DNA of 64,000 bases from a virus (lineage: Duplodnaviria; Heunggongvirae; Uroviricota; Caudoviricetes), in the IMG/VR virus record IMGVR_UViG_3300037067_008629, positions 22,078-86,077 of that record. One strand, 5' to 3'. Positions within the stretch are counted from its first letter, which is position 1, and each line of letters begins with the position of its first letter. A program made the translations under genes and the position numbers. This document shows positions 15,018-40,225 of this stretch, one piece after another. The notes beneath the pieces were generated by a model. The model was given only the letters and a program-made list of their open reading frames with translations. It was not told the DNA's origin and made no database searches.

Positions 15018-15490
15018 GGTTGCTCCTTCTTAAGTTTTTCTATTTCAGTAATCTTATCAGCAAGCTCTTCTTTTACTCTTAATAGCGCATTATTTAAAGT
15101 TTTTAGTTCCTGTGTTTTAGCGTCGAGTTCCGCTTGTAGTTTGGAGTTATCATCAACTAAAGTCTTAATTTGCGTTGCGGCTGTTTCAAGTGCAGTTTCT
15201 AATAATACGCTTTGTTGGCGTACTACTGCTAACTCTTCGGTGTATTTATTTAAATTCCCTTCAAGCATAGAAACTCGATTCGCTTGAGATACTATTATAT
15301 CTTGTAAACTAGCTGTGAAACAAATTCTCTCCGTAGTTGTATTGAGTTTCTGGACTTCTCGGCAATTATCCTTAGTGATATTTTTACAAAATTCTAATTC
15401 TTGCCGAATTTGGTAGTTATCTTCTAACACAAAAAAGCCACTTGTCAACACTGCGATTAATACCGCCCACAAACTTGTTGTCTTAAACAT
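15014..15490 (-). CDS. secreted or membrane-anchored coiled-coil protein
   Basis: N-terminal signal/TM helix (LWAVLIAVLTSGFFVL) followed by a long heptad-like coiled coil. Confidence 0.4.
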   Translation of the reverse strand: MFKTTSLWAVLIAVLTSGFFVLEDNYQIRQELEFCKNITKDNCREVQKLNTTTERICFTASLQDIIVSQANRVSMLEGNLNKYTEELAVVRQQSVLLETALETAATQIKTLVDDNSKLQAELDAKTQELKTLNNALLRVKEELADKITEIEKLKKEQP

Positions 15491-16034
15491 TTCTTTCTCC
15501 TTGACTATTAAATGATCCGCACATTGTATACCCGCTATTCCATGGGCGTGGAACTAAAATTGTTTGCCCACCATAGGCTCTAAATTCACCAAGATTTTTA
15601 TCATAATCATCAATTAATAATGCACTTGGTTTAGCACATAGCCATTTATGTGGACCAATTAAAAACTGACGATGAAGCCAACGTGGCATATTTGTATAAA
15701 TCCATTCCAATTTTCCAGCTAAACAATCTGGATCAATGACAGGAGATGTTAAAAGAAATACATTATTTCTTCCCACACATTGAGCACATAAATCTGGCAG
15801 CCAATTACATTCAAGGGTCTTAGGCATTGTGGCCCAGAAATTTCGATCTAATCGCTTCCAAAAATCATTATCCGATATCGGTTCGGGTAGTAATGTATTG
15901 CAATTTTTTACAATATCATAGTTGCCAGGAAGTGGATATTTAACAATAGTTCGCTGAGTCACCTTACTCAAAGCATCAAAAGGCATCATATTTAAGACGC
16001 CATCAATATCTATATAAATTACTTCAAGATTCAT
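15483..16034 (-). CDS. HAD-superfamily phosphatase (5'(3')-deoxyribonucleotidase-like)
   Basis: HAD motif I is IYIDIDGVLN, motif II is LLTSP, and motif IV is LLIDDYD. Confidence 0.55.
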   Translation of the reverse strand: MNLEVIYIDIDGVLNMMPFDALSKVTQRTIVKYPLPGNYDIVKNCNTLLPEPISDNDFWKRLDRNFWATMPKTLECNWLPDLCAQCVGRNNVFLLTSPVIDPDCLAGKLEWIYTNMPRWLHRQFLIGPHKWLCAKPSALLIDDYDKNLGEFRAYGGQTILVPRPWNSGYTMCGSFNSQGERNV

Positions 16035-26280: not shown

Positions 26281-26499
26281 TTATTTAAATTGGCGGCGTT
26301 GTGCTGGATGCTTTTTGTATGATTGTTGGGCAGCTTTCTGTGAACACTCTTTACACCACCAATCCAATCCGTCTTTCCTTGCCGTATTTTTATAAAATAA
26401 ACAAATACGTTTACGTTTTCTACAGTGTTTACAATACTTGGTTTTTATTCCAGTGGTTAATTTAATGGAAGTCACTACGTCTAATCTCCAAATAATCAA
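26281..26499 (-). CDS. small zinc-ribbon protein
   Basis: CKHC...CKEC (CxxC...CxxC) in a 72-aa basic protein. Confidence 0.35.
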
Positions 26500-27561
26500 C
26501 CGACACTGCTTTTAGAATTAATCGACCACCGAGAATCGGACTAAAAGTTTCGGTCAAAGGGGTAATCACGACACCTTCACGACCTTTAAAAGCTGATCGC
26601 ATATGTACCTTATCACCAATAATAGTGTCTCCATCCACAAGTTGTTCTACCACTTCATAATCAAATGGCCCAGTATATAGTAGAGGAACTAATGGGATAC
26701 AAAAACGAGTAGTATAATAGACAATTTGATCCCAGTTTAAGTAAGTACCATCGACTGAAATATCAAATAATGCATAACCATCGGCACCAAATCTACCGTA
26801 GTCCATAAATTGGACCTTGGAACCATAAATTTCTCCGAATGCAATCACATTCTTTCCACCATCAGAGATACACCGAAGCATATCCTTCATATTGGATGTA
26901 AGTGGATTCCAATAAATAGACGGATGCTCCAGCTTATCAAGAGACTTCATTGAACATTTATGTGACCCACACATAAATTCATTGTCAATTAATCCAACAC
27001 GCGAATTAGTACCGTGAATTTTTTCGGTTAAACGCACTGGCGTTCCAAGTGGAATTGCATTCCGATACTTAGAATTTCGATAATTTTGAATATCTGTATA
27101 GATGTGAATCGGGGATCATTCTTGGCATTATCTCCAACTCTAAACCATTCTGGTTCTGGTGGTTCATATTTAACACCATGAAAACGATCCGTAAGATCAG
27201 TTCCAGCTTCCACATCTACTTTAATTGTGTCACAGATATCACGCCTCTGTGCAGGCACCAAGAACCCAAATGAAGCTGCCCCACGTAAACGAATAGCACC
27301 TACTCGACACCTAGATTTTTCAGAATCTCCCGGATAAACTGCATCTTTGAGATAATTCTCAACTCCGAGTTGTACAGCTACTTTAGGGGGTATGAGTATG
27401 TCTGGTGGGAAGTGGGCAACAACATCGCCCACTTGATACTTACCTTTTGTTTCACAAGTTTGATAGGCACCAATCTTAACAATTTCTAATTTATCTGCAT
27501 TAATGTGTGGATAAATGGCATCAACTTTAACAGCCAAAATACTCAAATCACTCATGCGCAT
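26462..27561 (-). CDS. Rnl2-like RNA ligase with N-terminal tRNA-binding-like OB domain, interrupted by a frameshift at the C4 run 27112-27115
   Basis: Downstream frame: DIQNYRNSKYRNAIPLGTPVRLTEKIHGTN aligns to the T4 Rnl2 N-terminus [33 protein letters not shown], with motif I KIHGTN. Motif III is AFGEIYGSKVQ and motif IV is EGVVITPL. Upstream frame 27028..27561: ILAVKVDAIYPHINADKLEIVKIG resembles the Myf/EMAP tRNA-binding OB domain. The two frames join if one C is added to the cccc run (minus strand) at 27112-27115. Confidence 0.6.
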
Positions 27562-29147
27562 CCTCCAATTAATTTATCAATAGCATTAACAAAATCTTCA
27601 ACTCGATCCCCACCAACAAGATGCTCGAAATCAATGGTGTTGGCTTTCTGTACCATTGCCTCTAAGCTAGTGTTGTCTAAAATCAACATTTTAGCCACTT
27701 CAGTATACTGCTGGTAACTAGTAGTAACTAATTCATCCATACCAGCCCTACGTAGCAAATAAGATGCCGCTCGATTAAACCATTGAGTACCTTCTAACGT
27801 AACTACTGGGCGACCACACCAGAGAGATTCCAGTATTGTATTATAGCCTCCAAAAGGATAGCTGTCAACTGAAAAATGACAATTTGCCAGAACTTCCATG
27901 TACTTCTCATATGGTAAGTTAGGCACTATCGTTATATTCTTTCCAAAATACTCTAGCATTGACATACGTACAGGTATTGATGCTTGATATCTATGGATTG
28001 GATGCCCTGGCATAAAAACTAAATGTGCCCCTACTGCTTGAAGTTCCTTTAAACATTGAAACATTGGTATATTATATTTGATTGCGCTCCAAGGCACTGC
28101 GACTCTAATTTGATCTGAAAGTGATGCTTTTACTTTAATTGTAGGCAAAACCGGTAATACACCGCTTCCTGGAAGTAGTATTAAGTTTTCAGAATAATTC
28201 TTTTTCCAATCTAATACTTCAACTGATTTTCCAGACAGAAAATAATCAATTTGATTACCCCTACCGGATACAGGATGACCATGGCAAGCAACCTGCACCG
28301 GTGCTAGCCTCATATTGGATAGATAAATAGACTCTGCTGTTAATCCAATATCTAAAAATAAAGCCATACCAAAAGTTGTAGTTTGAATCTCTGATAAATC
28401 TAATCCCCGATCACTTACAGATACTTGTGCAACATTTTTAAAAATAGATAAATCCGCTGTCGCATCAATTGGGCCTAAATGAACCAGTGTGAGTTTATAT
28501 TTTTCAGCTAAAGCATAGACAAGTTTTCCTATTGACTTCGCTACAACATGAGTTGGTTTCCAATTACTGGTGACAATAGCAATATGTTTAAGATTGGGCA
28601 CATTATCTGGTGTTGGTAATGTAAAACTCTTATTAAATTGTCTCTTTACTTTTTGGGCGGTATTTGATGAAAAATAATCCGACCAAAAATAAGCCTGCGT
28701 ACTTTGAGGGAGAAATACACAACGTGGATGAATATTTTTATAATGAGATTCAATATTTTTCTGAAGATTAGTATCTGTACAACCAATAATTGGCAAAATA
28801 TATTGAGCAAACCATAAAGATGCTAAATTTCTATCATGTTTAAAAAATTGTCGTGAATCCATGCTGTCTCTATTTCGTCCTGTATAGAGAAACATTTGTT
28901 TCACTGGATCATCAAATAAATTGAGCCACTGATCCGTTGTTTTATATGGAGTGACTGCAACTATATTTGCATAAATATGACTATAAGTTAGTAGCTGATA
29001 AGCCTCATCTTTGGGTACATCCTGGTCTTTAAGAATCTCTAAAACACCATCGGCTGCTTGAATAAACATCCCAAGAATCTGGCCATCAAGTTTATTGATA
29101 CCAACACGAGCAAATGGATCAAGTATAGCCTGTATCTGTTCAATCAT
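27552..29147 (-). CDS. GT41-family (O-GlcNAc transferase-like) glycosyltransferase, paralog A
   Basis: DSYPFGGYNTILESLWCGRPVVTLEGTQWFNRAASYLLRRAG matches the OGT C-terminal catalytic signature ([38 protein letters not shown]). MRLAPVQVACHGHPVSGRGNQIDYFLSG parallels [27 protein letters not shown]. No TPR region is obvious. Confidence 0.6.
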   Translation of the reverse strand: MIEQIQAILDPFARVGINKLDGQILGMFIQAADGVLEILKDQDVPKDEAYQLLTYSHIYANIVAVTPYKTTDQWLNLFDDPVKQMFLYTGRNRDSMDSRQFFKHDRNLASLWFAQYILPIIGCTDTNLQKNIESHYKNIHPRCVFLPQSTQAYFWSDYFSSNTAQKVKRQFNKSFTLPTPDNVPNLKHIAIVTSNWKPTHVVAKSIGKLVYALAEKYKLTLVHLGPIDATADLSIFKNVAQVSVSDRGLDLSEIQTTTFGMALFLDIGLTAESIYLSNMRLAPVQVACHGHPVSGRGNQIDYFLSGKSVEVLDWKKNYSENLILLPGSGVLPVLPTIKVKASLSDQIRVAVPWSAIKYNIPMFQCLKELQAVGAHLVFMPGHPIHRYQASIPVRMSMLEYFGKNITIVPNLPYEKYMEVLANCHFSVDSYPFGGYNTILESLWCGRPVVTLEGTQWFNRAASYLLRRAGMDELVTTSYQQYTEVAKMLILDNTSLEAMVQKANTIDFEHLVGGDRVEDFVNAIDKLIGGCA

Positions 29148-30901
29148 TGAATAATAACTGGAGTCTTATTAGGTAGTGGATGATTTGCGATAATATAGTC
29201 GATTGCTTTAACAAAATATTGAGGTTCATCAGTATCCAACAATAAGTTCTTTAAACGATTAACATCAACTAATTTATCTCTTTCTTCTTTAAGAACTTGT
29301 GGATTATCCAAGAGTGCTAAAATTTGTTCTTCGCACATTTCAATACTTGTGGTGGATAAATCTACTCCAACCCGTCTCGCCAAAGCTGTTGACGCCCTAT
29401 TATAGAACTTATCACCTTCAATAGTCACAACAGGGCATCCAGCAAAGAACGAGTCTACAATAGTATTATAGCCACCAAATGGATATGAATCAACAGTCAG
29501 ACTTCCTTGTTCCACCTTAGCGAGATAATCCTGATATTCAAGATTAGGATAAATCGAAACCTGGCCACCAAAGAGTTCTTGTAGTTCTCGACACATAATT
29601 GGAAAATTATTATAGCGAGTACATGTCCATGATGGGAAAAATTGATAGTGTATCTTTAATTTAGATTTTTGTTGAACATTTCTTAGCATCTTCAACATCG
29701 GCCAATTAATTTTAGCTGTTGTCCAGCAACAGTTAATATAAATTATATCTGTAGCCTCTGGATAACGACGTGTATATTTAGGATCAACTGGATGCGCACC
29801 CAATCCTGGAATCAAAATTAGATGCTCACTATAATTATCTTGAGCTAATTCAATTTTTTCAGAGTCAATCCCACCAATAAAATAGTCTACAAATGAACCA
29901 TATGTGCTTACAGGATGTCCATAACCACAAACCATAATAGGAGCAAGTCTTGTATTTGCAAGAAAAACAGATTCGTCTGTCATTCCAATATCAGGAAAGT
30001 ATGCCAATTCAAAATCATTTTTCTTAATAGCAGTTAAATCATGTTTCTCCATTCCAGCATGAACCTGAACAACTTGTTTAAATAGAGACCTATCTATTCT
30101 ATCCATTTGTGCTTTACTTGAACAGACTAGAGTTAAGTCATACTTTTGTGCCAGAGCTGCGATCTGAGGATAACTACTTTTATAAACTGCCGTAACTGGA
30201 ACCCATTTATCTGTGATGATAGCTAGGCTTCCTTTTCGAGGCACACTAGTTATTTTATGCAAGTTAGAAAATTTCTTAACTTGTTGATTGCACCATTCTT
30301 TAATGGGTCGCTCATTAATACCTGAATATGAACATTGAAAATACATAGGTTGAACACGACTATCAGGTAAATCAAGTTCTGGTAAAAATTCAACTAGGTG
30401 TTTAATCATATTTTTAGTTAAAAATTCAGACGTGCCTCCAGGAGGGGCAGTAGAAAAATTATTCCACCATAAAGTTGCTAGTTTAGGATTGGGCGTAACT
30501 AGTGCTTTAGTATTAATTCCAATATCATTTCTACACGTATACAGAAATAATAATTTTGCATAATTTCCTTCTTGGTATATTAATGCTCTTAGTACACCAT
30601 CAGTAGTGCGATGGCCAGATATTGCCACTAGATTGGCAAATAAATGATTAATACCGATAAACAATGGAATCCAGTTGTCTGGGAATCTGAAATCTTCTTG
30701 CAGCATTAAAAAGAAAACAAACTCCACAAAAGAATCTATTCGCTTTATATCTTCTTTTCCAAAAGAAGCATAATTAACATCATTGCAATGCTTTAGTATT
30801 GCAAATATATCTTGACAAAGCTTATCGTATCTCTTCTGTGTATATAGTGTCAAAGCATACCGAGTATCAAAAGCCGGAAAATTAGTAATTGATGTATTCA
30901 C
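29144..30901 (-). CDS. GT41-family (O-GlcNAc transferase-like) glycosyltransferase, paralog B
   Basis: DSYPFGGYNTIVDSFFAGCPVVTIEGDKFYNRASTALARRVG and RLAPIMVCGYGHPVSTYGSFVDYFIGG carry the same OGT catalytic-domain signatures and are clearly paralogous to 27552..29147. Confidence 0.6.
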   Translation of the reverse strand: MNTSITNFPAFDTRYALTLYTQKRYDKLCQDIFAILKHCNDVNYASFGKEDIKRIDSFVEFVFFLMLQEDFRFPDNWIPLFIGINHLFANLVAISGHRTTDGVLRALIYQEGNYAKLLFLYTCRNDIGINTKALVTPNPKLATLWWNNFSTAPPGGTSEFLTKNMIKHLVEFLPELDLPDSRVQPMYFQCSYSGINERPIKEWCNQQVKKFSNLHKITSVPRKGSLAIITDKWVPVTAVYKSSYPQIAALAQKYDLTLVCSSKAQMDRIDRSLFKQVVQVHAGMEKHDLTAIKKNDFELAYFPDIGMTDESVFLANTRLAPIMVCGYGHPVSTYGSFVDYFIGGIDSEKIELAQDNYSEHLILIPGLGAHPVDPKYTRRYPEATDIIYINCCWTTAKINWPMLKMLRNVQQKSKLKIHYQFFPSWTCTRYNNFPIMCRELQELFGGQVSIYPNLEYQDYLAKVEQGSLTVDSYPFGGYNTIVDSFFAGCPVVTIEGDKFYNRASTALARRVGVDLSTTSIEMCEEQILALLDNPQVLKEERDKLVDVNRLKNLLLDTDEPQYFVKAIDYIIANHPLPNKTPVIIQ

Positions 30902-32060
30902 AAAGTATCCCTTCCTGTAAAATTAGAAGTTTTCGGTATTTGATTCCACGATATTCAATATCTAGTTTAATATCTTTAGCCCGCCACGGTGTTGTAATAA
31001 CAATAATTGGATCAATAAGAGTATTTAGTATATCCGGTGACTGAATTTCTTGACCTGTTCCAGGAACAAACTTACCAACTTTATGTACATCTGAATCAAC
31101 CACCAACGGATAATTAACACTATCAATCCCATAACTGTTTAAAAAGGCCGCACTTTTACCAGTCCCACCCCAAAAAACTAGCGTCTTACCCTGCTGCCTT
31201 ATTTCTTCTAATTGTCTTCTAACCGTACTAATAGAATCTTTAGCACCGATACCAAAGGCTTTAGCTGTGTCATTATAAAACTGTAATGGCACACTATTAG
31301 GTGTGAAAAAACCAGCAAGTACTTCGTTACCGTAGTATCTATTTATATCAAGGGTTGAGTATCCAGACTGAGTAAAGAGTGTCTGAAAACTGTTTGAAGT
31401 AAAATTAGATACATGCTCGTATAAAAAGTCAGAAATTCGGCCCAACGCTAATGAGTTATCAAAGCACGGAACTTCGACCAAAACAATTGGTGATAAATTA
31501 TATCTACTACACCAGTAGGCTATTTCAGATAAAAATTCTCTCGGCCTATCCATATGTTCAATAACATGTCGGCATACAAGTAAAGATGGTCTAAATCGAG
31601 CTAAATCACGCTCTGGAATAAAATAATCTCTAAAGACCGAAAAATTTTTAACTTGGTCGCCTTCGATTCCTGGCTCATAACCAATACAAGAAGCAGTGGG
31701 TACAGTACCGAGCAGACGGGTGAAAAATTGTCCATCACCACATCCGATATCAATTGCTATGCCATTTATCCAACGTTCCTTGTATGTATGGAGTTTATTG
31801 ACTAATATTTGCATATGAGTCTGCCACTCTGGTCCGCTATTATACATCAAATTAGAATCTTCAGCATAGGGGACTTGTGCATAATTAAAATTTGCATTAA
31901 AAACATGTCCACAGAATGAGCACATGTGAAAATTCATAGGAAACCTGAGCGCATTCTGTGCCATAGCGGCCGATCTTGGTAAATTTAGAGCGGCCAATGG
32001 TTGAGGGCCTGGATCAAAGATTTTCTGGGTTAATCTGCTACCACATACTATACATCTCAT
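30882..32060 (-). CDS. SAM-dependent sugar C-methyltransferase-like (zinc-ribbon + class I MTase + C-terminal domain)
   Basis: The N-terminal CIVCGSRLTQKIFDPGPQPLAALNL matches the zinc-binding N-domain of sugar C3-methyltransferases (TylCIII/NovU type). Motif I is IAIDIGCGDGQF. The ~390-aa size fits that family. Confidence 0.55.
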   Translation of the reverse strand: MRCIVCGSRLTQKIFDPGPQPLAALNLPRSAAMAQNALRFPMNFHMCSFCGHVFNANFNYAQVPYAEDSNLMYNSGPEWQTHMQILVNKLHTYKERWINGIAIDIGCGDGQFFTRLLGTVPTASCIGYEPGIEGDQVKNFSVFRDYFIPERDLARFRPSLLVCRHVIEHMDRPREFLSEIAYWCSRYNLSPIVLVEVPCFDNSLALGRISDFLYEHVSNFTSNSFQTLFTQSGYSTLDINRYYGNEVLAGFFTPNSVPLQFYNDTAKAFGIGAKDSISTVRRQLEEIRQQGKTLVFWGGTGKSAAFLNSYGIDSVNYPLVVDSDVHKVGKFVPGTGQEIQSPDILNTLIDPIIVITTPWRAKDIKLDIEYRGIKYRKLLILQEGILCEYINY

Positions 32061-32626
32061 GCTCTATCTACCTTATAAGGACATTCTTGACAAGTCTCTT
32101 CACGTAGTATTAAAACTTTGTTTCCATTTCTTGTGCAGTTTAAAAAATAACGTTCACAGCCACAAGATTGGGCTGGTTTCTTTTCAAATTCAATATGGAT
32201 ACAAAAGGGTTTTTCTGGTATCAAAATCCAAGCATCACTACTCTGGGGATTATTTGATTTTCGCTTGTATCCAACTGGTACTGGTGGCGGTTCCCAATCT
32301 GTCTCTGCTTTAGTATAAACAATAGTCCCATCTTTTAAAAGCTGGGGTTTTCGGACTGGGATAGGTTGAGGTACTGTCTTAACTTCAGTTACTGGTAGTA
32401 TTTGTAAATTTTGGTCTAATTCCTGGCAAGCTAAACATATTTCGCTTGTGACAATTTTTTGTTTGTATAATTCTGGGTGCTTAATTAATTCAGAGGGAGG
32501 TAATAATTGCAACTGCGCTAATAATGGTTTACAGTATAGTATTTCAGGACTATTAGCCCTGGCCCTATAAATTATTCGCCTGCTACAGATTGGCAAATTA
32601 GCAATAATCTTCGTGTCGGTTGTCAT
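32057..32626 (-). CDS. Cys-rich domain protein (paralogous to 43024..43341)
   Basis: EPPPVPVGYKRKSNNPQSSDAWILIPEKPFC...SCGCERYF against EPPPLVEGYQRKSNNPKNSDAWVLIPIWTTCC...GCRCVTFY in the other copy. Confidence 0.45.
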   Translation of the reverse strand: MTTDTKIIANLPICSRRIIYRARANSPEILYCKPLLAQLQLLPPSELIKHPELYKQKIVTSEICLACQELDQNLQILPVTEVKTVPQPIPVRKPQLLKDGTIVYTKAETDWEPPPVPVGYKRKSNNPQSSDAWILIPEKPFCIHIEFEKKPAQSCGCERYFLNCTRNGNKVLILREETCQECPYKVDRA

Positions 32627-34205
32627 ATTTAGGATGATTTTCAGGACTAAACCAGTTTTGATGCTCGTCGTAAAATTCAGTTTGTTGAGTCGTATAATCC
32701 TTACCTATCCGAGTCTGAACGGCTTTGTAAGATAAAGTATACTCTAAGTATGTTGAAGGTACATACAAAGTATCAACTACACCACTGTAAATAAATGCAC
32801 ACCATGCATGCTCATAGCATCCTCTCAGGCCACCACAAACTTCGTCTTCTAAATCTCCCCCAGTCCAGTACCAAGTTAAAGTTTCAGGAGCACCCCAGGA
32901 ACATGGTTCGGTACAAGTTGGTGGTGCTGCGTCACAACGATGAATTGATGTACGATCAAAAGTTCTAACAGTTTGGTCTATTAATAAATCATCTGCTTGA
33001 TCGTAGGATAAAAATGGAGTACCATTAGGACTTAAACTAATCGTCAATCTGGTTGTTCTGTCAAAAGCAGAGTCATATTTATCAATATAAATTGAAGGCC
33101 GTAGTCCACAACCTTGATGATTAGTATATTTAAGACATCCTTTACTATTATAAGTACAGTCTGTCATATATGATGGCAGCGCTGCTTCACATAGACAGTC
33201 GTCAGTATTAGCATAAGCCCTAGATAACTCTGCTATTGTACTATCAGACTTAGGGTTGAACCATTTCCACCAATTAAATTGCAGACCATAAATAAGGGGC
33301 AATGCCCATTGCATTCCTTGCCACTCAGCAGGTAAACGAGTTTGAAGTAAGACACAAGCGGCCATGTTTTCGGCTGCATCATTATCGCAGGCTGTTCTAG
33401 CTGGTTCTATTTTATTAAATTCAGTAAGATACTCATCATGCTTAGTATCAATGATATTTTGTTGGTCTTGAGCCTGGCTTCCCAAGTCACAAATCTGGAT
33501 TCTCAAAGCTTCGCATTGTGGAATATCTTCTTCTGCTGGTGCAGTGTCACAATCTAAACTAAGGTACTCAGCGATAGCAGCATCAAGTTGTGGTAAAATA
33601 TCTTCATCTAAAGTTGCTTGTTCCTTAGCCAACTGACAAGCTTTTTGTTGTGTAGCATTAACAGCTTGAATAAATTCGTATTGTTTTTGACGGGCTGTTG
33701 TATACGTATCGCAGATTTTATTCCAACTAGTAACATTTGTTCCCTCCAGTGGCGGATACCAAACTCCTGTATAAGTATCAGTAAACCAATCCATTCCAAT
33801 ACAATAGTAACACACGCCACCAGATACTATACCACAATGCTCTTCTGTACAACATGCGTCTATAGTGGTCCAGCCAACTCGTTCTGTCGCCACATCCACT
33901 TCGACTGGTGTACACTCTTCACAATCACACCACATGTCCGAAATTTGTTCTTCAATTTCGTCGATAATTTCATAGTGCCAAATTTCAAGGTCTTCTGTAA
34001 ATGAAATATCAGGACAAGACTCAATCATCTTATTACGAACCTCAGTAACATCATCCTGAGCCCAAAGATGAGGGTCTTCTACTTCTTCTAATGGATCAAT
34101 GGGCGTACATCCTTCGGGAGGATTAGCCAATTTGTCATTGATATCCTGTATCAATTTATTCCATTGGTCAATACTAAATGGCCCTGAATCATAGTAGCTG
34201 CTCAT
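32598..34205 (-). CDS. large Cys-rich hypothetical protein
   Basis: 535 aa, more than 35 Cys and acidic. I recognise no enzymatic motif. Confidence 0.45.
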   Translation of the reverse strand: MSSYYDSGPFSIDQWNKLIQDINDKLANPPEGCTPIDPLEEVEDPHLWAQDDVTEVRNKMIESCPDISFTEDLEIWHYEIIDEIEEQISDMWCDCEECTPVEVDVATERVGWTTIDACCTEEHCGIVSGGVCYYCIGMDWFTDTYTGVWYPPLEGTNVTSWNKICDTYTTARQKQYEFIQAVNATQQKACQLAKEQATLDEDILPQLDAAIAEYLSLDCDTAPAEEDIPQCEALRIQICDLGSQAQDQQNIIDTKHDEYLTEFNKIEPARTACDNDAAENMAACVLLQTRLPAEWQGMQWALPLIYGLQFNWWKWFNPKSDSTIAELSRAYANTDDCLCEAALPSYMTDCTYNSKGCLKYTNHQGCGLRPSIYIDKYDSAFDRTTRLTISLSPNGTPFLSYDQADDLLIDQTVRTFDRTSIHRCDAAPPTCTEPCSWGAPETLTWYWTGGDLEDEVCGGLRGCYEHAWCAFIYSGVVDTLYVPSTYLEYTLSYKAVQTRIGKDYTTQQTEFYDEHQNWFSPENHPKYDNRHEDYC

Positions 34206-34735
34206 ATTAGTCTCTCCATAACTTCATCAAGACTAATAGGACGCCATTCTCCGATAAGATTGAAAATATTATCCACACTCACATCAATTGATCTTCGATT
34301 AGGAAACCATTGATTAAGTTGATTTTCCATAGACCCATGGCAATGCCCATATAGATGTATTCCGCCGTGATGTAGAGCGTCCCAAGATATCATAGGATAA
34401 TGCAGCATATGAATCTTCTGTCCATTGAACTTCTTACATAGCATATCCTGGAAAGTTGAACAATGCTGTCGAAGACTACTACTATCGTGGTTTCCACGCA
34501 CTATATGAAGCTGTTTAACTTTTAGCCTTTGTCGGTAATGACCAGCTTTACTTGCTGACCAACAAAAGTCTCCAAGATGATAAAGTATATCATCTGGCCG
34601 AACAACTTGATTAATATTATCAATTAACTGTGCGTCCATTTCTTCAAGATACTCAAATGCATTTAAGCGCGCAGATTGATGCAGCAAAATGCCCGTATGT
34701 CCGAAGTGCGTATCTGAAGTGAACCAAACTGTCAT
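34202..34735 (-). CDS. metallophosphoesterase (YfcE/MPP-like)
   Basis: VWFTSDTHFGH (DxH), LGDFCW (GD) and VRGNHD (GNHD). Length is 177 aa. Confidence 0.6.
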   Translation of the reverse strand: MTVWFTSDTHFGHTGILLHQSARLNAFEYLEEMDAQLIDNINQVVRPDDILYHLGDFCWSASKAGHYRQRLKVKQLHIVRGNHDSSSLRQHCSTFQDMLCKKFNGQKIHMLHYPMISWDALHHGGIHLYGHCHGSMENQLNQWFPNRRSIDVSVDNIFNLIGEWRPISLDEVMERLI

Positions 34736-35304
34736 TTATCTGAATCCCAAATAACTTTTACATTTTCTGATTTGTAGATATCTTCTGGTAGGATATAATC
34801 TCCAAAACTAAAATACCATTTTAGTTTTCTCTCAATATCACAAGCAAGTATCAATTCAGAACAATATAAGGTAAGCTGATCGGGCTGAAATTGAAAATCG
34901 TAAGAGGTCCCAACCAATGACTTACACTTTTTAATTACTCTTTTTATATACTCTTTATCCCAATCATAACATTCTAATAAAACTACTCGATCTGATGTAT
35001 GGCATATATCAAAAAATGTACTTTTTGTATACCCTAGATGAGTCATTTCTCCTACTTCATAAATAGTTCCTTTTCCCACACACAGAGAGGCATGATCCAA
35101 ATCTCCAGGTGTCAAAAAAGATGAAATTCGTGACTCATCTGTAGACAAAATAATTTGCCCTGGTTTTAATAACTTGTATCCTTCTCGATACTTTTTTCCA
35201 GTTAAACGAGTATGATTACAAGAAATCCGAACCCAGGATAGAATATCTCGTACTATCCAAAGATAGATTCTTGTTGTCATACACCATTTTAATAGAGTTC
35301 GCAT
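34732..35304 (-). CDS. permuted papain-fold peptidase, YiiX/DUF830-like
   Basis: GDLDHASLCVGKGTIYEVGE (His-first) and a C-terminal YCSELILA nucleophile Cys, which is the permuted NlpC/P60 layout. Confidence 0.4.
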   Translation of the reverse strand: MRTLLKWCMTTRIYLWIVRDILSWVRISCNHTRLTGKKYREGYKLLKPGQIILSTDESRISSFLTPGDLDHASLCVGKGTIYEVGEMTHLGYTKSTFFDICHTSDRVVLLECYDWDKEYIKRVIKKCKSLVGTSYDFQFQPDQLTLYCSELILACDIERKLKWYFSFGDYILPEDIYKSENVKVIWDSDK

Positions 35305-36027
35305 TTATAGCCCTAGTAAAGATTTAATAAGGTTCCATAACCAAAGCCAAAAACTATTTGCAGGTTCTGGTTCTACTGGTGTAATTGGAGTCTCGTGACG
35401 ACCAATAAGAAATGCAGCCTCACCATCCTCAGTTAGCAATTTCTTCATATCAGCAAAACTAATCTTAAAGTCACCGTTCTTGCCCCAGCCAAGACCCCAG
35501 CTATTATGTCCAACAAGATATTCCTCTTCAACATTAATACCTTTAACTAACCAACAATGACCACCTTCATTATAACCAGTCACATGCACAAATCCATTCT
35601 CATCTGTCTCAGACATTCCACTATACCAACTAGTACCAACAATCGCTGGCCCTTCATTTGAGATACCATTTAGAAAAGTCTCAAAATCAAAGGACCAATT
35701 ATAAGCATCGCACCAACCTGCATTCTTTAATGCTTTTAAACCAGCTAGTACGCTGGTTCCTTCATAATTCTCACCTGGAAATTCATCAAGTTTTTGAGCT
35801 TCTTTATAGATGTTACGACAGTAGTTATAATCGACTGAAGCTACTTCAACAGGTGCGGCAACTAATTCATGGCCACAGCCAAAACCAACACATGAACCTT
35901 CATTACCTTGATCCAAATGTTTCTTGCAATCCCAAGTTCTGGTCTGAAGTAGATATAACTTCAGAAGTAGTGGATACTTACGACTTCTTTCATCAAATTG
36001 AATATGGCGTCCAAATTGTCTAGGCAT
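35305..36027 (-). CDS. papain-family (C1) cysteine peptidase
   Basis: QGNEGSCVGFG is the Q...C-containing motif (CGSCWAF-like). GHCWLVKG and GHNSWGLGWGKNGDF carry the His and the NSWG...WG...G motif. Confidence 0.55.
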   Translation of the reverse strand: MPRQFGRHIQFDERSRKYPLLLKLYLLQTRTWDCKKHLDQGNEGSCVGFGCGHELVAAPVEVASVDYNYCRNIYKEAQKLDEFPGENYEGTSVLAGLKALKNAGWCDAYNWSFDFETFLNGISNEGPAIVGTSWYSGMSETDENGFVHVTGYNEGGHCWLVKGINVEEEYLVGHNSWGLGWGKNGDFKISFADMKKLLTEDGEAAFLIGRHETPITPVEPEPANSFWLWLWNLIKSLLGL

Positions 36028-36406: not shown

Positions 36407-36611
36407 TTTTACCCCAGGTAAAATTTAGCCAAAGACGTTCATGGTAATAATAAAAGATTATCTTAACAATAAGACAAGTAATTGATAGTGAAATACTCGA
36501 TGTAATACAACTTGTAAATAAATAAGCAACACCTACTGTAATAAACGTAGAAATAGACTCCCACGTAATAGCTTTTACTAACGATCGTTGTCGGCTAGTC
36601 TTTGTCTTCAT
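36393..36611 (-). CDS. small membrane protein
   Basis: 72 aa with two hydrophobic helices. Confidence 0.35.
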   Translation of the reverse strand: MKTKTSRQRSLVKAITWESISTFITVGVAYLFTSCITSSISLSITCLIVKIIFYYYHERLWLNFTWGKNDNI

Positions 36612-38589
36612 CTATATCTTCAAAACATTGAGTAAATTCACCCATAGACATTAATTCCAAACGACGATTCTCTTTTAAAATTTCAAGTACACGCAGATCA
36701 GTTGGAAGATGAATTAAATCTACAATAGTTGCACCCTTATTCTCATCCATCCCAATTCTATGAATACGATCCTCACTTTGTGAACGCGCTTCAGGGTTAT
36801 AGTCGTTCGAGTAATAACAGATAGTTCGTGATTCAACTAAAGTTAAAGATAAACCACCGCTTTTTGGATGGGCGACAAATACTACTCGTGGATGATTTAC
36901 TAAATCAGCCCAGTAATCCAACGGTGCTTCATTTATAATTCCGTCCTTAGTGCGAACTTGCCAGCCACGGCCATCAACACGTACAACATCCCATTCTTGT
37001 TTTAAACAAATAGCAGTCACTTTATCAATTGAACCAGTAAATCCCGCAAATACAACTAATCTACCAGTCTCTTCGTTTTCTTCTAACAAAGAAATAAGTG
37101 CCTCTTCTTTTGGACAGGGAACTTCTTTTACAGTTCGCTCTAATTTATCAACCTGACCTGTACCATTACATGAAGCACATGGAAAGTCTTGTTTTTCTAA
37201 AGTTTTAACATACTCTGGGTCAAGCATATCTATCATAGTAAATGCACGATCCGAATCTTCTGGATCAACCCAATAGGATGTAATACAGGTGCCATCACAA
37301 ACTGGGCAAGTTTCTTTTCCAACTACCTTATTACGATATTGAAAACCATCACTTAATTCACGCAACCACGTTAATCCAGTAATAGTATTTGGGGCTGCTT
37401 GAAGAAGTGATTGAGCAACACGTAGTGTTGATGGCTTAGGGGGACATTGAATAATCCGATATCGCTTATCAGGGAGATCAATACAATCTTTCTTATGTTT
37501 AATGACAGCAAGTCCTTTTAATCGTTTATATAAAAAAGCCACTTCGTTTTTACATGGCTTAAAATCATGCACATCTGCATCAGCCTTTAGATACTCATTT
37601 GTCGCATCAAGTAAATGAGTATGTTTACCGTCTTCCGCCAATTCTCCACATATATCACATTTTCGTTCATCATCTTTCCAAGTAACAAGCTTATGAAATG
37701 ATGTACCACCTAATCCCTCTTCTTTACGGTGTATACCAAGTCTAAATTCAAAAGAATTTCGACTACCTTCACGAAGATATCCAGGCCAAGTAATCTCTGC
37801 TTGACTCCACCAATCAGCGGGTGATTTAGGGGATGGAGTTCCTGACATAAGAATTACATAACCTTCAAATCCCCAGTCATTCCTAACGCCGTCCGCTAAT
37901 GCTTGGGCAGCCATTGTTCGCTTTGCTGTTGGATTCTTTAGCCGACTAGATTCATCAAATATTACACCGTGCGGAGCCTTTTGAGAACTATCCCAAGTAG
38001 ACATACGTTTGACTAGACCTTCATAAGTCATAATCTCAATGTTAAGTCTATCCGAAATACCCCACTTTTTAAATTCACGTTCAATCGCATACAGGCCAGA
38101 TTTGGGACCAATCCACCACCAATTCTGCTTTCCAGATTGTTCCATCAATTCAATCGCTGAAAGTGTTTTACCAGTTCCCATTTCAGCGCCCCATACCTGA
38201 TAGTGGAATGTTAATCCCAAATCAGTCATGTCTTTTTGATGGGTCATCAAAGGACGTGTATATTCAAAATGCTGAAGCGGTCGATCAAACCAAGCGTAAA
38301 CATCTTCGCCCAATAATAACCGTAGTTGAAACCAATTCCTAAAACAATTTGATGCTGTCCAAATCTTACGTGGCGGATCATCGTATCCATGCCACCTAGC
38401 ACCTTTCATTGATTTTATTTCGTCCTTTAATTCAAAAGGAGATTTTAAAAATTCAATGTTGACAGGTGTTACTAGAATCTGGCCGGGCTTTTTAATTAAG
38501 GTACCCGACTTAGTTTCAACAAGAAACTTAATATCAAGTGGTTGATTTAATGGAACTGCATCAAACATAGAAACCTCATTAAGGACCAA
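36595..38589 (-). CDS. SNF2-family helicase/ATPase with Cys-rich insertion
   Basis: Motif I is GAEMGTGKT and motif II is VIFDESSRLKN (DEAH-box-like, SNF2-type). C-terminal helicase motifs are present, with CxxC clusters (CDICG, CPVCDGTC, CASCNGTG) inserted. Confidence 0.6.
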   Translation of the reverse strand: MVLNEVSMFDAVPLNQPLDIKFLVETKSGTLIKKPGQILVTPVNIEFLKSPFELKDEIKSMKGARWHGYDDPPRKIWTASNCFRNWFQLRLLLGEDVYAWFDRPLQHFEYTRPLMTHQKDMTDLGLTFHYQVWGAEMGTGKTLSAIELMEQSGKQNWWWIGPKSGLYAIEREFKKWGISDRLNIEIMTYEGLVKRMSTWDSSQKAPHGVIFDESSRLKNPTAKRTMAAQALADGVRNDWGFEGYVILMSGTPSPKSPADWWSQAEITWPGYLREGSRNSFEFRLGIHRKEEGLGGTSFHKLVTWKDDERKCDICGELAEDGKHTHLLDATNEYLKADADVHDFKPCKNEVAFLYKRLKGLAVIKHKKDCIDLPDKRYRIIQCPPKPSTLRVAQSLLQAAPNTITGLTWLRELSDGFQYRNKVVGKETCPVCDGTCITSYWVDPEDSDRAFTMIDMLDPEYVKTLEKQDFPCASCNGTGQVDKLERTVKEVPCPKEEALISLLEENEETGRLVVFAGFTGSIDKVTAICLKQEWDVVRVDGRGWQVRTKDGIINEAPLDYWADLVNHPRVVFVAHPKSGGLSLTLVESRTICYYSNDYNPEARSQSEDRIHRIGMDENKGATIVDLIHLPTDLRVLEILKENRRLELMSMGEFTQCFEDIDEDKD

Positions 38590-39423: not shown

Positions 39424-39761
39424 GCTAATTTGCCTCCATGACGGTATGAGCGTGTCTTATTATATTCTAATTTTAATCTAAGAGCTTCTTCCAAAGGAAT
39501 GTTAAACTTGCCACAAGTATCGGCTACTCGAATCAAAAGATCAGCAAACTCCACAGCGATCCCTTCCGGCTTGTCATCCAAATTGTATACCATACTATAT
39601 TTGTCCAAACCGTGCTTTCGATACTCCTCCATTACTTCGGCTAATTCTGTTACCATTAACATTAACTTTTCGCCAAAATTAATTTCTTTATCCCACCAAC
39701 CTTTTTCTAAGGCTGTAGTATAAGATTGTTGAATTAATTCTTGTATTGTCATGGATACCAT
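39420..39761 (-). CDS. mazG: MazG-like nucleotide pyrophosphohydrolase
   Basis: All-alpha NTP-PPase acidic motifs: MLMVTELAEVMEE and GIAVEFADLLIRVAD. Length is 113 aa. Confidence 0.55.
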   Translation of the reverse strand: MVSMTIQELIQQSYTTALEKGWWDKEINFGEKLMLMVTELAEVMEEYRKHGLDKYSMVYNLDDKPEGIAVEFADLLIRVADTCGKFNIPLEEALRLKLEYNKTRSYRHGGKLA

Positions 39762-40225
39762 ACCTTTCCATCAAATAGATTTTGGCAATAACCTAGTTTT
39801 CCATACCACCAAGTATATGTCACACCACTGGCTTCAAAAATCTTCTTAGCCAACTCAGTATCTTCTCGCCAACGGTCTGGTGTCATTTCCAAAGCATTCC
39901 CATGGCAGACTACCTCTTTAATACCTGAAAGAACAATCGCACGAGCACAATCACAACAAGCAGCCCATGGACAATACATGGTAGCACCTTCTAAAGATAC
40001 TCCCTCTTTTGCTGCCTTAAAAATTGCGTCTCGTTCCGCGTGTTCAATAATTTTGTACTTTAATGCTCTGTCTGTTAAATCAAAATTATCTAAACCAGGA
40101 GGTAGGTGATTCCAGCCCATAAACATATGAGATTGGGTTAAGATAATGGCTCCAACCTTCGTACTAGGGTCAGGGCTATAAAGATGTGCAATTCGATATG
40201 CAGATCGTAAATTATTCTTGTTCAT
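39749..40225 (-). CDS. dCMP deaminase
   Basis: HAERDAI is the zinc-binding H-A-E motif and YCPWAACCDCARAIVLSGI is the PCxxC motif. Confidence 0.75.
   Translation of the reverse strand: MNKNNLRSAYRIAHLYSPDPSTKVGAIILTQSHMFMGWNHLPPGLDNFDLTDRALKYKIIEHAERDAIFKAAKEGVSLEGATMYCPWAACCDCARAIVLSGIKEVVCHGNALEMTPDRWREDTELAKKIFEASGVTYTWWYGKLGYCQNLFDGKVWYP

What the first reader, a model, noticed from the sequence alone, without database searches (positions are those of the whole stretch)
27552..34205. Glycosylation module: two OGT-like GT41 glycosyltransferases, a sugar C-methyltransferase-like enzyme and Cys-rich proteins
Two adjacent paralogs carry the hallmark catalytic-domain signatures of GT41 O-GlcNAc transferases but lack an obvious TPR array. 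They are followed by an enzyme with the zinc-ribbon, class I MTase and C-terminal domain layout of deoxysugar C-methyltransferases, and then by a 189-aa and a 535-aa Cys-rich protein. GT41 enzymes glycosylate proteins on Ser/Thr. A phage-encoded pair suggests O-glycosylation of virion proteins (the tail proteins here are Thr/Ser-rich) or of host targets, possibly with a methylated sugar. Either would be an unusual phage protein-modification system.
Basis: partly seen in the sequence, partly recalled or inferred. Interest (0 to 1): 0.7.

Follow-up and report, generated by a model that had tools for sequence, protein, structure and literature searches.

The report
Phage methyltransferase plus HMW1C-like glycosyltransferase cassette
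An uncultivated phage carries a conserved gene pair, a sugar C-methyltransferase-like enzyme and a TPR-less GT41 glycosyltransferase (duplicated here), whose closest cellular relatives sit beside flagellin genes, so it is probably a phage-borne protein-glycosylation system of a type not yet described in viruses.

Summary
Five tightly packed minus-strand ORFs sit at the stated coordinates. Two are GT41 paralogs without TPRs. One has the three-domain layout of TylC3/TcaB9 sugar C-methyltransferases. Two are Cys-rich proteins of unknown function.

The interpretation needs three corrections.

1. The glycosyltransferases (GTs) are not OGT-like. They have the architecture of HMW1C-type N-glycosyltransferases, an all-alpha N-domain plus a GT-B domain (profile E=8e-51; model TM 0.8 to AaNGT/ApNGT). 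They keep the UDP-binding residues. They lack the Arg177/Asp215 pair that reads the N-X-S/T sequon, so acceptor chemistry is open.

2. The functional unit is the methyltransferase-GT pair. It is adjacent in all 26 related viral loci, with GT identity down to 32%. The second GT occurs in only a few lineages. The Cys-rich pair is a separate cassette that sits elsewhere in a syntenic relative.

3. In Planctomycetota chromosomes the same pair lies in flagellin loci (flagellin-MT-GT, MT-GT-FliD-FliS). The cellular counterpart is therefore most likely a flagellin glycosylation system.

The target in the phage is unknown; virion or host proteins are the leading candidates. No phage GT41 system turned up in the literature or in GenBank phages. 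I rate it a new variant of a known kind, of moderate to high interest.

The parts
30882..32060 (-). MTase (392 aa) with the TylC3/TcaB9/KijD1 three-domain layout: a 4-Cys zinc ribbon (C3, C6, C47, C50), a class I SAM methyltransferase domain and a C-terminal Methyltransf_14 domain. It is the first gene of the conserved MT-GT pair and overlaps the GT-B start by 20 nt.
   Evidence: Pfam PF08421, PF13489 and PF08484. PDB hit TylC3 4rv9 at E=3e-10 with the single sequence. With family profile A3: TylC3 2.6e-29, KijD1 4.6e-22, TcaB9 9e-22, all full length. Invariant across 15 family members: the four Cys, H165, E168, H169 and Y214-E215-H216, which aligns with the Glu-His of TylC3 'HEH' and KijD1 'DEH'.
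29144..30901 (-). GT-B (585 aa), the primary GT41 glycosyltransferase with HMW1C/NGT architecture: an all-alpha N-domain (about residues 1-215) plus a GT-B catalytic domain. It is the second gene of the conserved pair.
   Evidence: NCBIfam NF049992 NGTferase E=5e-36, far below the equivalog cut-off. PDB hits AaNGT 8p0q at 1.8e-29 and ApNGT 3q3e at 8.5e-28. Profile A1 against AaNGT gives 8e-51 over positions 55-555. The AF2 model has pLDDT 87.7; Foldseek finds AaNGT/ApNGT at TM 0.79-0.81 and OGTs at 0.5-0.6. Conserved: G328-H329, K397, N479 and D483, equivalent to AaNGT G369-H370, K440, N520 and D524. Not conserved: H214-D215 becomes Q184-P185 and H276-S277 becomes T237-A238.
27552..29147 (-). 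GT-A (531 aa), a diverged paralog of GT-B (34% identity) with a shorter N-domain. The catalytic Lys, Gly-His and Asn are retained and D483 is replaced by Glu. A second GT is found only in some lineages.
   Evidence: Pfam PF13844 E=1e-10. NCBIfam NGTferase 3.9e-22. PDB AaNGT 1.7e-17. Alignment A1 and key residues. In the NJ tree GT-A and the second copies of L001, L002, L006 and L011 form a separate deep clade. Second GTs occur only in L001, L002, L006, L011/L027 and L022/L023.
32057..32626 (-). Cys189 (189 aa, 10 Cys), function unknown. It lies next to the MT-GT pair in this clade only. Its C-terminal module recurs elsewhere in relatives.
   Evidence: No Pfam, PHROG, NCBIfam or PADLOC hit. Homologues lie directly upstream of MT only in L001, L002, L006 and L011. 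In L007-L012, L029 and L030 the C-terminal module lies 7-9 kb away. In L056 it follows the Cys535 homologue in three tandem copies.
32598..34205 (-). Cys535 (535 aa, 29 Cys, net charge about -60), function unknown. Together with Cys189 it forms a two-gene cassette that can be separated from MT-GT.
   Evidence: Only 10 homologues among 5.8 billion proteins. In the syntenic relative L056 the cassette follows the primase and RNase T genes on the opposite strand, not MT-GT. The AF2 model has pLDDT 71.5, with a long helical hairpin (156-286) and a beta domain. No PDB fold match was found (best E=0.04, TM below 0.2).
27840..27868 (-). A perfect sigma-70 consensus (TTGACA-17-TATAAT) inside the 3' end of GT-A. 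It may be the promoter of the downstream RNA ligase gene, which would put a transcription-unit boundary just after the GTs.
   Evidence: It is the only 12/12 match in 16 kb. The scan as a whole found no more sites than shuffled sequence, so this is a consensus match only.

Best explanation
The core is a self-contained two-gene cassette. The first gene is an NDP-sugar C-methyltransferase-like enzyme of the TylC3/TcaB9 type. The second is a soluble GT41 glycosyltransferase with HMW1C/NGT architecture. The likely mechanism runs as follows. The MTase uses SAM to methylate a nucleotide-activated sugar taken from host metabolism. By analogy with its solved relatives this would be an NDP-4-keto-6-deoxyhexose. 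The GT binds the nucleotide sugar through its conserved Lys397, Gly-His328/329, Asn479 and Asp483. It then transfers the sugar in the cytoplasm to a protein acceptor held by its fast-evolving all-alpha N-domain. In this phage clade a second, diverged GT (GT-A) either extends the glycan or serves a second acceptor. The cellular counterparts of the pair are flagellin-locus genes in Planctomycetota, so the ancestral job is most likely flagellin glycosylation. In the phage the acceptor is most likely a phage structural protein such as the Thr-rich tail-region paralogs, or else a host protein. The acceptor motif is not the canonical N-X-S/T. The two Cys-rich proteins are neighbours, not components. 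Shown here: family and fold, conserved nucleotide-binding residues, the invariant MT-GT pairing, and the flagellin-locus context of the cellular homologues. Inferred: donor sugar, order of reactions, linkage type and the phage target.
For: GT family and fold. The profile matches AaNGT at E=8e-51 over both domains and the model reaches TM 0.79-0.81. Nucleotide-binding residues across 51 family members, mapped onto the AaNGT residues described in PMC10507012: K440-equivalent 51/51, G369 51/51, H370 50/51, N520 46/51, D524 as D or E 51/51. MTase: with full-length matches to TylC3, KijD1 and TcaB9, the Zn-ribbon cysteines and an invariant Glu-His. Pairing: in all 26 IMG/VR loci, plus L004/L005 and the mis-binned phage contig L030, the MTase ends at or overlaps the GT start. 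GT identity falls to 32% and MT identity to 30%. The gene upstream of MT varies, so the unit is strictly two genes. Cellular context: L032 and L033 read flagellin-MT-GT. L034/L054, from a 4.2-Mb Thermoguttaceae chromosome, reads MT-GT-FliD-FliS. L035 reads flagellin-GT-(MT)-FliD-FliS. L036 to L038 read flagellin-GT. Distant Marinobacter homologues lie beside two flagellins, FliD and FliS. In the NJ tree the phage MT-linked GT clade is sister to the Planctomycetota flagellin-locus clade. Literature: GT41 enzymes fused to methyltransferase domains are predicted components of enterobacterial flagellin glycosylation islands (PMC4875605). Cluster O mycobacteriophages carry an O-methyltransferase followed by tandem GTs that modify capsid and tail tube (PMC11600133 citing Freeman 2023).
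Against: No biochemical data exist for any member of this clade. Neither the window nor the inter-gene gaps of relatives hold an NDP-sugar 4,6-dehydratase, ketoreductase or other sugar-pathway gene, so the MTase substrate is unproven. The cassette sits among replication, nucleotide and RNA-repair genes (SNF2 helicase, phosphoesterase, RNA ligase), not among late structural genes, which is not what a virion-modification role would most simply predict. No flagellin homologue is present in the window. No protein shows sequon enrichment. About half of the non-planctomycete bacterial homologues have no flagellar gene within 8 kb, so the family has other acceptors too.
Confidence: 0.6

Rival explanations
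1. Canonical NGT: the two GTs are orthologues of HMW1C/ApNGT and attach glucose from UDP-Glc to Asn in N-X-S/T sequons of a phage or host protein.
For: The best solved relatives and the best NCBIfam model are NGTs. The two-domain architecture is the same and the UDP-contacting residues are conserved.
Against: The residues that AaNGT needs to read Ser/Thr at +2 are not conserved. R177A and D215A are inactive (PMC10507012). Here H214-D215 becomes Q-P in GT-B and T-Q in GT-A, and across the family the position is P, G, H, A, Q or V. The R177 position is Ala/Pro. The sugar contacts His276/Ser277 become Thr-Ala in GT-B. NF049992 scores are 79 and 125 bits against a cut-off of 1000. No adhesin or two-partner-secretion partner is present. 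No window ORF shows N-X-S/T enrichment (maximum z 2.8 among 63 ORFs). The obligatory MTase partner has no counterpart in NGT systems.
Confidence: 0.1
2. Host flagellin (or other host filament) remodelling: the phage cassette keeps the ancestral acceptor. It glycosylates host flagellin during infection, for example to stop flagellotropic phages or progeny virions from adsorbing to infected cells.
For: The closest cellular clade lies in flagellin loci. The cassette sits in the early/replication region, not the late region.
Against: The all-alpha acceptor domain is the most diverged part, 23-31% identical to the planctomycete enzymes against 43-55% for the N-lobe. The cassette holds a fixed, syntenic position across very divergent phages, unlike typical accessory exclusion genes. 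The host is unknown, and the phage GC of 37% seems low for Planctomycetota (my own knowledge, not tested). The benefit to a lytic phage is unclear.
Confidence: 0.15
3. Nucleic-acid or small-molecule modification: the GT-B enzyme has been recruited to glycosylate phage DNA bases or RNA, or a non-protein acceptor. The MTase would then act on that substrate or on the sugar.
For: The genomic setting is among DNA/RNA enzymes: SNF2 helicase, phosphoesterase, RNA ligase, DNA polymerase, dCMP deaminase, deoxyribosyltransferase and a dGTP diphosphohydrolase-like protein. Phage DNA glycosyltransferases are also GT-B fold (general knowledge; see also bioRxiv 10.1101/2023.12.21.572611, listed).
Against: The whole NGT peptide-binding architecture, including the all-alpha domain, is retained. 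Cellular orthologues sit next to flagellin, a protein substrate. The window has no hydroxymethylase, TET or 5-hmC/5-hmU pathway gene. The MTase is of the sugar type, not a base methyltransferase.
Confidence: 0.12
4. Five-gene module: the Cys-rich proteins are substrates or subunits of the glycosylation machinery.
For: In the window clade they are translationally coupled to the MTase and conserved there (L001, L002, L006). L011/L027, which also carry a second GT, have a mini-version in the same slot, made of the Cys535 N-terminal 76 aa plus a Cys189-like C-terminus.
Against: Most phages with MT-GT have no Cys535 homologue nearby. In L056 the Cys535+Cys189 cassette is at a different locus and on the other strand. 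The gene upstream of MT belongs to at least seven unrelated families among relatives. The planctomycete MT-GT loci have no homologue.
Confidence: 0.1

Closest known systems
HMW1C-type cytoplasmic N-glycosyltransferases (H. influenzae HMW1C, ApNGT 3Q3E, AaNGT 8P0O/8P0Q; CAZy GT41)
   Same: They are soluble and metal-independent. They share the two-domain architecture (all-alpha N-domain plus GT-B, no TPR), with model TM about 0.8. The UDP-contacting Lys, Gly-His, Asn and Asp are conserved.
   Different: Sequence identity is only about 19-25%. The Arg177/Asp215 sequon readers and the His276/Ser277 sugar contacts are not conserved. There is no adhesin partner. The phage enzymes always pair with a C-methyltransferase-like enzyme. 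They are encoded by phages and, in cells, in flagellin loci.
GT41 enzymes of flagellin glycosylation islands (Enterobacteriaceae; De Maayer & Cowan 2016, PMC4875605)
   Same: A GT41 glycosyltransferase is coupled to a methyltransferase function in a flagellin locus. That is the arrangement found here for the planctomycete orthologues: flagellin-MT-GT-FliD-FliS.
   Different: In enterobacteria the MT is a domain fused to the GT and is annotated only as a generic AdoMet MTase. Those enzymes are predictions without biochemistry, and I did not test homology to them directly. The window's cassette is in a phage with no flagellin gene.
TylC3, TcaB9 and KijD1 NDP-sugar 3-C-methyltransferases
   Same: They share the Zn-ribbon, SAM-MTase and C-terminal domain layout, a full-length alignment (E down to 2.6e-29), and conserved His and Glu-His active-site residues.
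   Different: Identity is low. The window's MTase is not embedded in a deoxysugar pathway, with no 4,6-dehydratase, aminotransferase or ketoreductase nearby. Its partner is a protein-type GT rather than a natural-product GT.
Mycobacteriophage virion glycosylation (Che8, Corndog and cluster O phages; Freeman et al. 2023, as cited in PMC11600133)
   Same: Both are phage-encoded methyltransferase genes followed by tandem glycosyltransferase genes. In the mycobacteriophages these enzymes modify capsid and tail-tube proteins.
   Different: In the mycobacteriophages the MT is an O-methyltransferase. The GT families are not reported as GT41, and I could not compare them directly. There is no sequence relationship to GenBank phages (tblastn of GT-B against 50,697 phage records found nothing).
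FlmG flagellin glycosyltransferases (Caulobacter, Brevundimonas)
   Same: The logic is the same: an N-terminal helical domain binds the acceptor and a C-terminal GT-B domain selects the donor. FlmG acts on flagellin in the cytoplasm (bioRxiv 10.1101/2022.03.25.485807).
   Different: FlmG uses a TPR N-domain and transfers nonulosonic acids. It did not appear among sequence or fold matches.
Eukaryotic and bacterial OGT and SPINDLY (GT41)
   Same: They share the catalytic C-lobe and the catalytic Lys.
   Different: The window's GTs have no TPR superhelix. Matches are restricted to the catalytic lobe (E about 1e-13, TM 0.5-0.6).

Membership tests
CAZy GT41 / Pfam PF13844 Glyco_transf_41 | Significant match to the family model | tested here: met
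   GT-A scores 41 bits against a gathering score of 25. GT-B alone scores 20.6 bits, below it. Most GT-B homologues carry a precomputed PF13844 hit, and the family profile hits only GT41 structures.
HMW1C-like NGT | Two-domain architecture: all-alpha N-domain (AAD) plus GT-B, with no TPR | tested here: met
   Profile positions 55-555 align to AaNGT residues 66-598. The AF2 model reaches TM 0.79-0.81 to 8p0q, 8j30 and 3q3e over about 615-640 aligned columns. There is no TPR hit.
HMW1C-like NGT | UDP/pyrophosphate-binding residues (AaNGT Gly369-His370, Thr437/Lys440, Asn520, Asp524) | tested here: met
   They correspond to G328-H329, T394/K397, N479 and D483 in GT-B. The Lys is invariant in 51/51 family members. 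GT-A has Glu in place of Asp.
HMW1C-like NGT | AAD dyad Arg177/Asp215 (plus His214) that reads Ser/Thr at +2 of N-X-S/T; R177A and D215A are inactive | tested here: not met
   'ISHDVYMHCSY' in AaNGT aligns without gaps to 'RVQPMYFQCSY' in GT-B. The family column is P, G, H, A, Q or V. The R177 position is Ala/Pro in a variable loop.
HMW1C-like NGT | NCBIfam NF049992 equivalog cut-off | tested here: not met
   Scores are 124.5 and 78.6 bits against a cut-off of 1000.
HMW1C-like NGT | Genetic linkage to a two-partner-secretion adhesin substrate, or sequon-rich acceptors | tested here: not met
   There is no adhesin or TpsB gene in the window. No N-X-S/T enrichment was found in 63 ORFs.
HMW1C-like NGT | Beta-N-glucosylation of Asn with UDP-Glc | not testable with these tools
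   This needs an enzyme assay and mass spectrometry.
OGT / SPINDLY | N-terminal TPR superhelix | tested here: not met
   There is no TPR Pfam hit. The N-domain matches the NGT AAD instead.
TylC3/TcaB9-type NDP-sugar C-methyltransferase | Zn-ribbon (4 Cys), class I SAM MTase and Methyltransf_14 C-terminal domain | tested here: met
   PF08421, PF13489 and PF08484 all hit. C3, C6, C47 and C50 are invariant. Full-length PDB alignments were obtained.
TylC3/TcaB9-type NDP-sugar C-methyltransferase | Active-site His and Glu-His | tested here: met
   H165, H169 and E215-H216 are invariant in 15 sequences. They align with 'RHVfaH' and 'HEH' of TylC3 and 'DEH' of KijD1. Equating them with TcaB9 His181, Glu224 and His225 rests on my recollection of the TcaB9 literature.
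TylC3/TcaB9-type NDP-sugar C-methyltransferase | Embedded in a pathway that supplies an NDP-4-keto sugar (4,6-dehydratase and so on) | tested here: not met
   No such gene is present among the window ORFs scanned, in the L022/L028 gaps or beside the planctomycete pair. A host supply would be required.
Flagellin glycosylation island | Location within or adjacent to flagellin, fliD and fliS genes | tested here: inconclusive
   Met for the cellular orthologues: 7 of 8 Planctomycetota loci, 2 of 2 Marinobacter loci, and FliP near L003. Not met for the phage, whose window holds no flagellar gene.
Phage virion glycosylation (mycobacteriophage type) | Cassette-dependent glycans on capsid or tail-tube proteins | not testable with these tools
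   Only the gene arrangement (MT followed by tandem GTs) is analogous. Thr-rich tail-region paralogs exist, but that is not evidence of modification.

The most novel reading that the evidence does not exclude
A large, uncultivated group of roughly 100-175 kb phages carries, at a fixed position in its replication module, a two-enzyme cassette captured from or shared with bacterial flagellin-glycosylation loci. The cassette decorates a phage or host protein with a C-methyl-branched sugar through an HMW1C-fold enzyme that does not use the N-X-S/T sequon. This would be the first viral GT41 system and a new acceptor specificity within the NGT fold. In the most striking version the target is host flagellin and the purpose is to change a phage receptor during infection.
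Probability: 0.4. Interest if true: 0.75.

Novelty: new variant of a known kind. Interest (0 to 1): 0.6.

Why it matters
Protein glycosylation by phages has been demonstrated in very few systems. None of them involves GT41 or HMW1C-fold enzymes, as far as the GenBank phage collection and the literature searches show.

This cassette is conserved across a deep phage lineage, so it is probably important for those phages. It also links three things that have been studied separately: soluble N-glycosyltransferases used in glycoengineering, flagellin glycosylation islands, and branched-sugar C-methyltransferases.

An NGT-fold enzyme with a different acceptor code and possibly a non-glucose donor would be directly useful for glycoengineering. 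It would also give a testable handle on what the uncharacterised GT41+MT genes in flagellin loci do. Finally, it defines a clear experiment on what these phages glycosylate and why.

Tried and rejected
- **GenBank phages.** Nucleotide (blastn) and protein (tblastn) searches of the region and of GT-B found nothing. The DNA polymerase is only about 25% identical to Enterococcus phage polymerases, so no cultured relative is available.
- **PHROGs and PADLOC.** No PHROG hit for either GT, the MTase or the Cys-rich proteins. PADLOC returned only two marginal partial hits, GT-A to a type II REase model (E=0.0024) and the MTase to PbeC (E=1.8e-5), which I treat as noise.
- **Sequon hypothesis.** N-X-S/T counts were compared with 300 shuffles for 63 ORFs. 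No enrichment was found (maximum z 2.8, not significant after multiple testing).
- **Flagellin in the phage.** tblastn of a planctomycete flagellin against the window found nothing.
- **Cys535.** Few homologues exist. The AF2 model is moderate. Foldseek against PDB found no credible match. Its function is unresolved. A DNA-mimic idea based on its net charge of about -60 is pure speculation.
- **Sugar-pathway genes in relatives.** The extra 6 kb between the phosphoesterase and the MTase in L022/L028 holds an M28 peptidase, ThyX, a class II RNR and an unknown gene, with no sugar genes.
- **A conserved third gene upstream of the MTase.** There is none; at least seven unrelated families occupy that slot.
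- **Promoter and terminator scan.** It found no more sites than shuffled sequence, apart from one perfect -35/-10 match.
- **L040.** This "Enterobacteriaceae" MAG contig has two tandem GTs but a very high density of overlapping ORFs. I did not interpret it further.
- **Freeman et al. 2023.** The paper could not be read; I relied on a citing paper.

Full report
**Observation.** The interval 27552-34205 holds five minus-strand ORFs exactly as described.
- GT-A: 27552-29147, 531 aa.
- GT-B: 29144-30901, 585 aa.
- MTase: 30882-32060, 392 aa.
- Cys189: 32057-32626.
- Cys535: 32598-34205.

Adjacent genes overlap by 4-29 nt. The transcription order is Cys535 > Cys189 > MT > GT-B > GT-A. The window as a whole is a tailed-phage genome fragment of about 37-38% GC, with nearly all genes on the minus strand. 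It carries two tRNAs, a tape-measure gene and a large replication and nucleotide-metabolism block. It has no close relative among 50,697 GenBank phage records.

**The glycosyltransferases.** Pfam assigns GT-A to Glyco_transf_41 above the gathering score and GT-B just below it. No TPR is found. NCBIfam's best model for both is the HMW1C-type UDP-glucose:protein N-beta-glucosyltransferase, although the scores are far below the equivalog cut-off.

Against PDB sequences the best hits are AaNGT and ApNGT (E=1.8e-29 for GT-B, 1.7e-17 for GT-A). OGT-type enzymes come well behind. A profile of 13 family members matches AaNGT at E=8e-51 across both domains. OGT, SPY and XcOGT match only the C-lobe at about 1e-13. 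An AlphaFold2 model of GT-B (pLDDT 87.7, pTM 0.87) superposes on AaNGT/ApNGT with TM 0.79-0.81 and on OGTs with 0.5-0.6. These proteins are therefore GT41 enzymes of HMW1C/NGT architecture, not OGT-like.

I used the residue roles established for AaNGT (PMC10507012).
- **Conserved.** The nucleotide-binding set is kept. Gly369-His370 corresponds to G328-H329, Lys440 to K397, Asn520 to N479 and Asp524 to D483. The Lys is invariant in 51 of 51 family members.
- **Not conserved.** The residues that make an NGT read the N-X-S/T sequon are absent. In AaNGT, R177A and D215A are inactive. His214-Asp215 aligns without gaps to Gln-Pro in GT-B and Thr-Gln in GT-A. The Arg177 position is Ala/Pro. The sugar-contacting His276-Ser277 is Thr-Ala in GT-B.

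Consistent with this, no window protein is enriched in N-X-S/T. The family shares the NGT fold and donor-binding chemistry, but membership in the NGT functional family fails on a defining feature. Whether the linkage is to Asn or to Ser/Thr cannot be told.

**The methyltransferase.** It has the zinc-ribbon, class I MTase and Methyltransf_14 domains. It aligns over its full length to TylC3, KijD1 and TcaB9, with profile E values of 2.6e-29, 4.6e-22 and 9e-22. The four zinc cysteines, two histidines in the RHVxEH motif and the Tyr-Glu-His motif are invariant in 15 homologues. The Glu-His aligns with the Glu-His of the solved C-methyltransferases. No enzyme that would make the expected NDP-4-keto sugar substrate is encoded in the window or near the pair in relatives. 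The host would have to supply it, or the substrate is something else.

**The unit.** GT-B has 209 detectable homologues, most of them from metagenomes. I recovered 26 IMG/VR loci, from contigs of up to 175 kb, with GT identity of 32-91%. In every one of them, and in L004/L005 and the mis-binned "Anaerolinea" contig L030, the MTase gene lies immediately upstream of the GT and usually overlaps it.

The surrounding synteny is also conserved: SNF2 helicase, phosphoesterase, MT-GT, RNA ligase, then a 431-aa HTH/phosphoesterase-like protein. The gene immediately upstream of the MTase belongs to at least seven unrelated families. A second GT is present only in the window clade (L001, L002, L006), L011/L027 and L022/L023. 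In an NJ tree the GT-A-type copies form their own deep clade.

The Cys535 family has only 10 members. In the syntenic relative L056 the Cys535+Cys189 cassette sits after the primase and RNase T genes on the other strand, far from where MT-GT would be. The conserved functional unit is therefore MT+GT. The Cys-rich proteins are a separable cassette of unknown function. Its AF2 model has pLDDT 71.5 and no PDB fold match.

**Cellular counterparts.** A scan of one genome per prokaryotic species found homologues mainly in Planctomycetota, with some in Proteobacteria and Cyanobacteria. The Planctomycetota gene orders are:
- L032 and L033: giant flagellin (about 1065 aa), then MT, then GT.
- L034/L054, a complete 4.2-Mb Thermoguttaceae chromosome: MT-GT (overlapping) followed by FliD and FliS.
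- L035: flagellin, GT, (MT), FliD, FliS.
- L036 to L038: flagellin, then GT.

More distant Marinobacter homologues lie beside two flagellins, FliD and FliS. L003 has FliP and CheB nearby. Seven of eight planctomycete loci are flagellin-linked, which chance cannot explain.

The phage MT-linked GT clade is sister to this planctomycete clade. The window MTase is 46-51% identical to the planctomycete MTases, which is closer than to distant phage MTases. The literature already predicts GT41 enzymes, nearly all fused to a methyltransferase domain, in enterobacterial flagellin glycosylation islands (PMC4875605). The most economical reading is that the cellular pair glycosylates flagellin and that phages share the same two-gene cassette.

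**What it does in the phage.** This step is inference. No flagellin gene is present in the window. The all-alpha N-domain forms the peptide-binding site in NGTs. It is the fastest-evolving part of the protein, 23-35% identical against 40-63% for the N-lobe. That fits changing acceptors.

A documented phage precedent has the same gene logic. Cluster O mycobacteriophages carry a methyltransferase followed by tandem GTs that modify capsid and tail tube. This phage has two Thr-rich paralogous tail-region proteins. Against a virion role, the cassette lies in the replication/RNA-repair block, not the late block. I therefore commit to cytoplasmic protein glycosylation with an MTase-modified sugar (confidence about 0.6).

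| Candidate target | Rough weight |
|---|---|
| Virion protein | 0.35 |
| Host protein, including flagellin | 0.25-0.3 |
| Non-protein target | 0.12 |

**Novelty.** No paper or GenBank phage record describing a phage GT41/HMW1C-like enzyme was found. The components belong to known families, and phage protein glycosylation is known in principle. This is therefore a new variant of a known kind, not a new category. It is still a well-supported, lineage-wide and experimentally tractable system with an unusual evolutionary link to flagellin loci.

Noticed in passing
window 26462-27561 (-), frameshift near 27108: The RNA ligase gene just downstream of GT-A is split into two overlapping ORFs in different frames: the OB-fold part at 27028-27561 and the ligase part at 26462-27037. 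Relatives L001 and L004 have a single ORF of about 355 aa. The window lacks one C ('TTCCAC' reads 'TTCAC'), a 1-nt frameshift. It could be an assembly error, a pseudogene or a programmed shift.
   Followed up: partly
window 27840-27868 (-): A perfect sigma-70 consensus (TTGACA-17-TATAAT) lies inside the 3' end of GT-A, upstream of the RNA ligase. It is the only 12/12 match in 16 kb, while the scan overall found fewer sites than shuffled sequence.
   Followed up: no
window 60329-61714 and 61779-62513 (-): Two adjacent paralogs share an identical N-terminus (MARIELRDCTIRIKDGLSGTA) and a nearly identical C-terminal stretch of about 190 aa. The longer one carries a roughly 220-aa insertion. Both have a Thr-rich tract (up to 47% S/T in 30 aa) and lie upstream of the putative chaperones and the tape measure (55452-59081). 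They may be long and short tail-tube or decoration forms and are candidate glycosylation acceptors.
   Followed up: partly
window 32598-34205 (-) and L056 10001-12650: Cys535 is extremely acidic (net charge about -60) with 29 Cys. Its model shows a 130-residue helical hairpin and it has no fold match. In L056 its homologue is followed by three tandem copies of the Cys189 C-terminal module. In L011/L027 a mini-protein joins the Cys535 N-terminal 76 aa to a Cys189-like C-terminus.
   Followed up: partly
window 4406-7798, 15483-16034, 39749-40225, 46734-47246: The window holds a rich nucleotide-salvage and modification set: a GMP reductase/IMPDH-like protein, a nucleoside 2-deoxyribosyltransferase fused to HNH and AP2 domains, a DeoC aldolase, an NT5C nucleotidase, a dCMP deaminase and a dATP/dGTP diphosphohydrolase N-domain protein (MazZ/DatZ-like). 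No PurZ was seen among the ORFs scanned. A non-canonical base in the DNA is not excluded.
   Followed up: no
window 10146-11405 (-): A BCS1-type AAA ATPase (BCS1_N, AAA and BCS1 lid domains) lies next to an N6/N4 DNA methylase (9392-10156). It is an unusual protein for a phage.
   Followed up: no
L008, L013, L021, L024, L026 (SNF2 gene, about 5-8 kb in each locus): In several relatives the SNF2 helicase gene is interrupted after about residue 140 by 0.75-1 kb of extra sequence, possibly an intein, intron or homing-endonuclease insertion. The window's gene (36595-38589) is not interrupted.
   Followed up: no
L030 (DYKV01000002.1, 'Anaerolinea sp.' MAG) and P0043 ('Candidatus Uhrbacteria' MAG): Contigs binned into bacterial MAGs carry the GT. 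L030 also shows the phage synteny (SNF2, MT-GT, RNA ligase, p431). L030 is therefore a phage contig mis-binned or associated with that MAG. The taxonomic labels of such homologues should not be read as host or cellular origin. P0043's gene context was not examined.
   Followed up: partly
L003 11903-13021; L022 1979-2878; L028 3529-4473: An M28 peptidase gene lies directly after the GT in one bacterial genome and a few kb upstream of MT-GT in two distant phages. The window instead has C92 and C1-like peptidases upstream (34732-36027). This may be coincidence.
   Followed up: no
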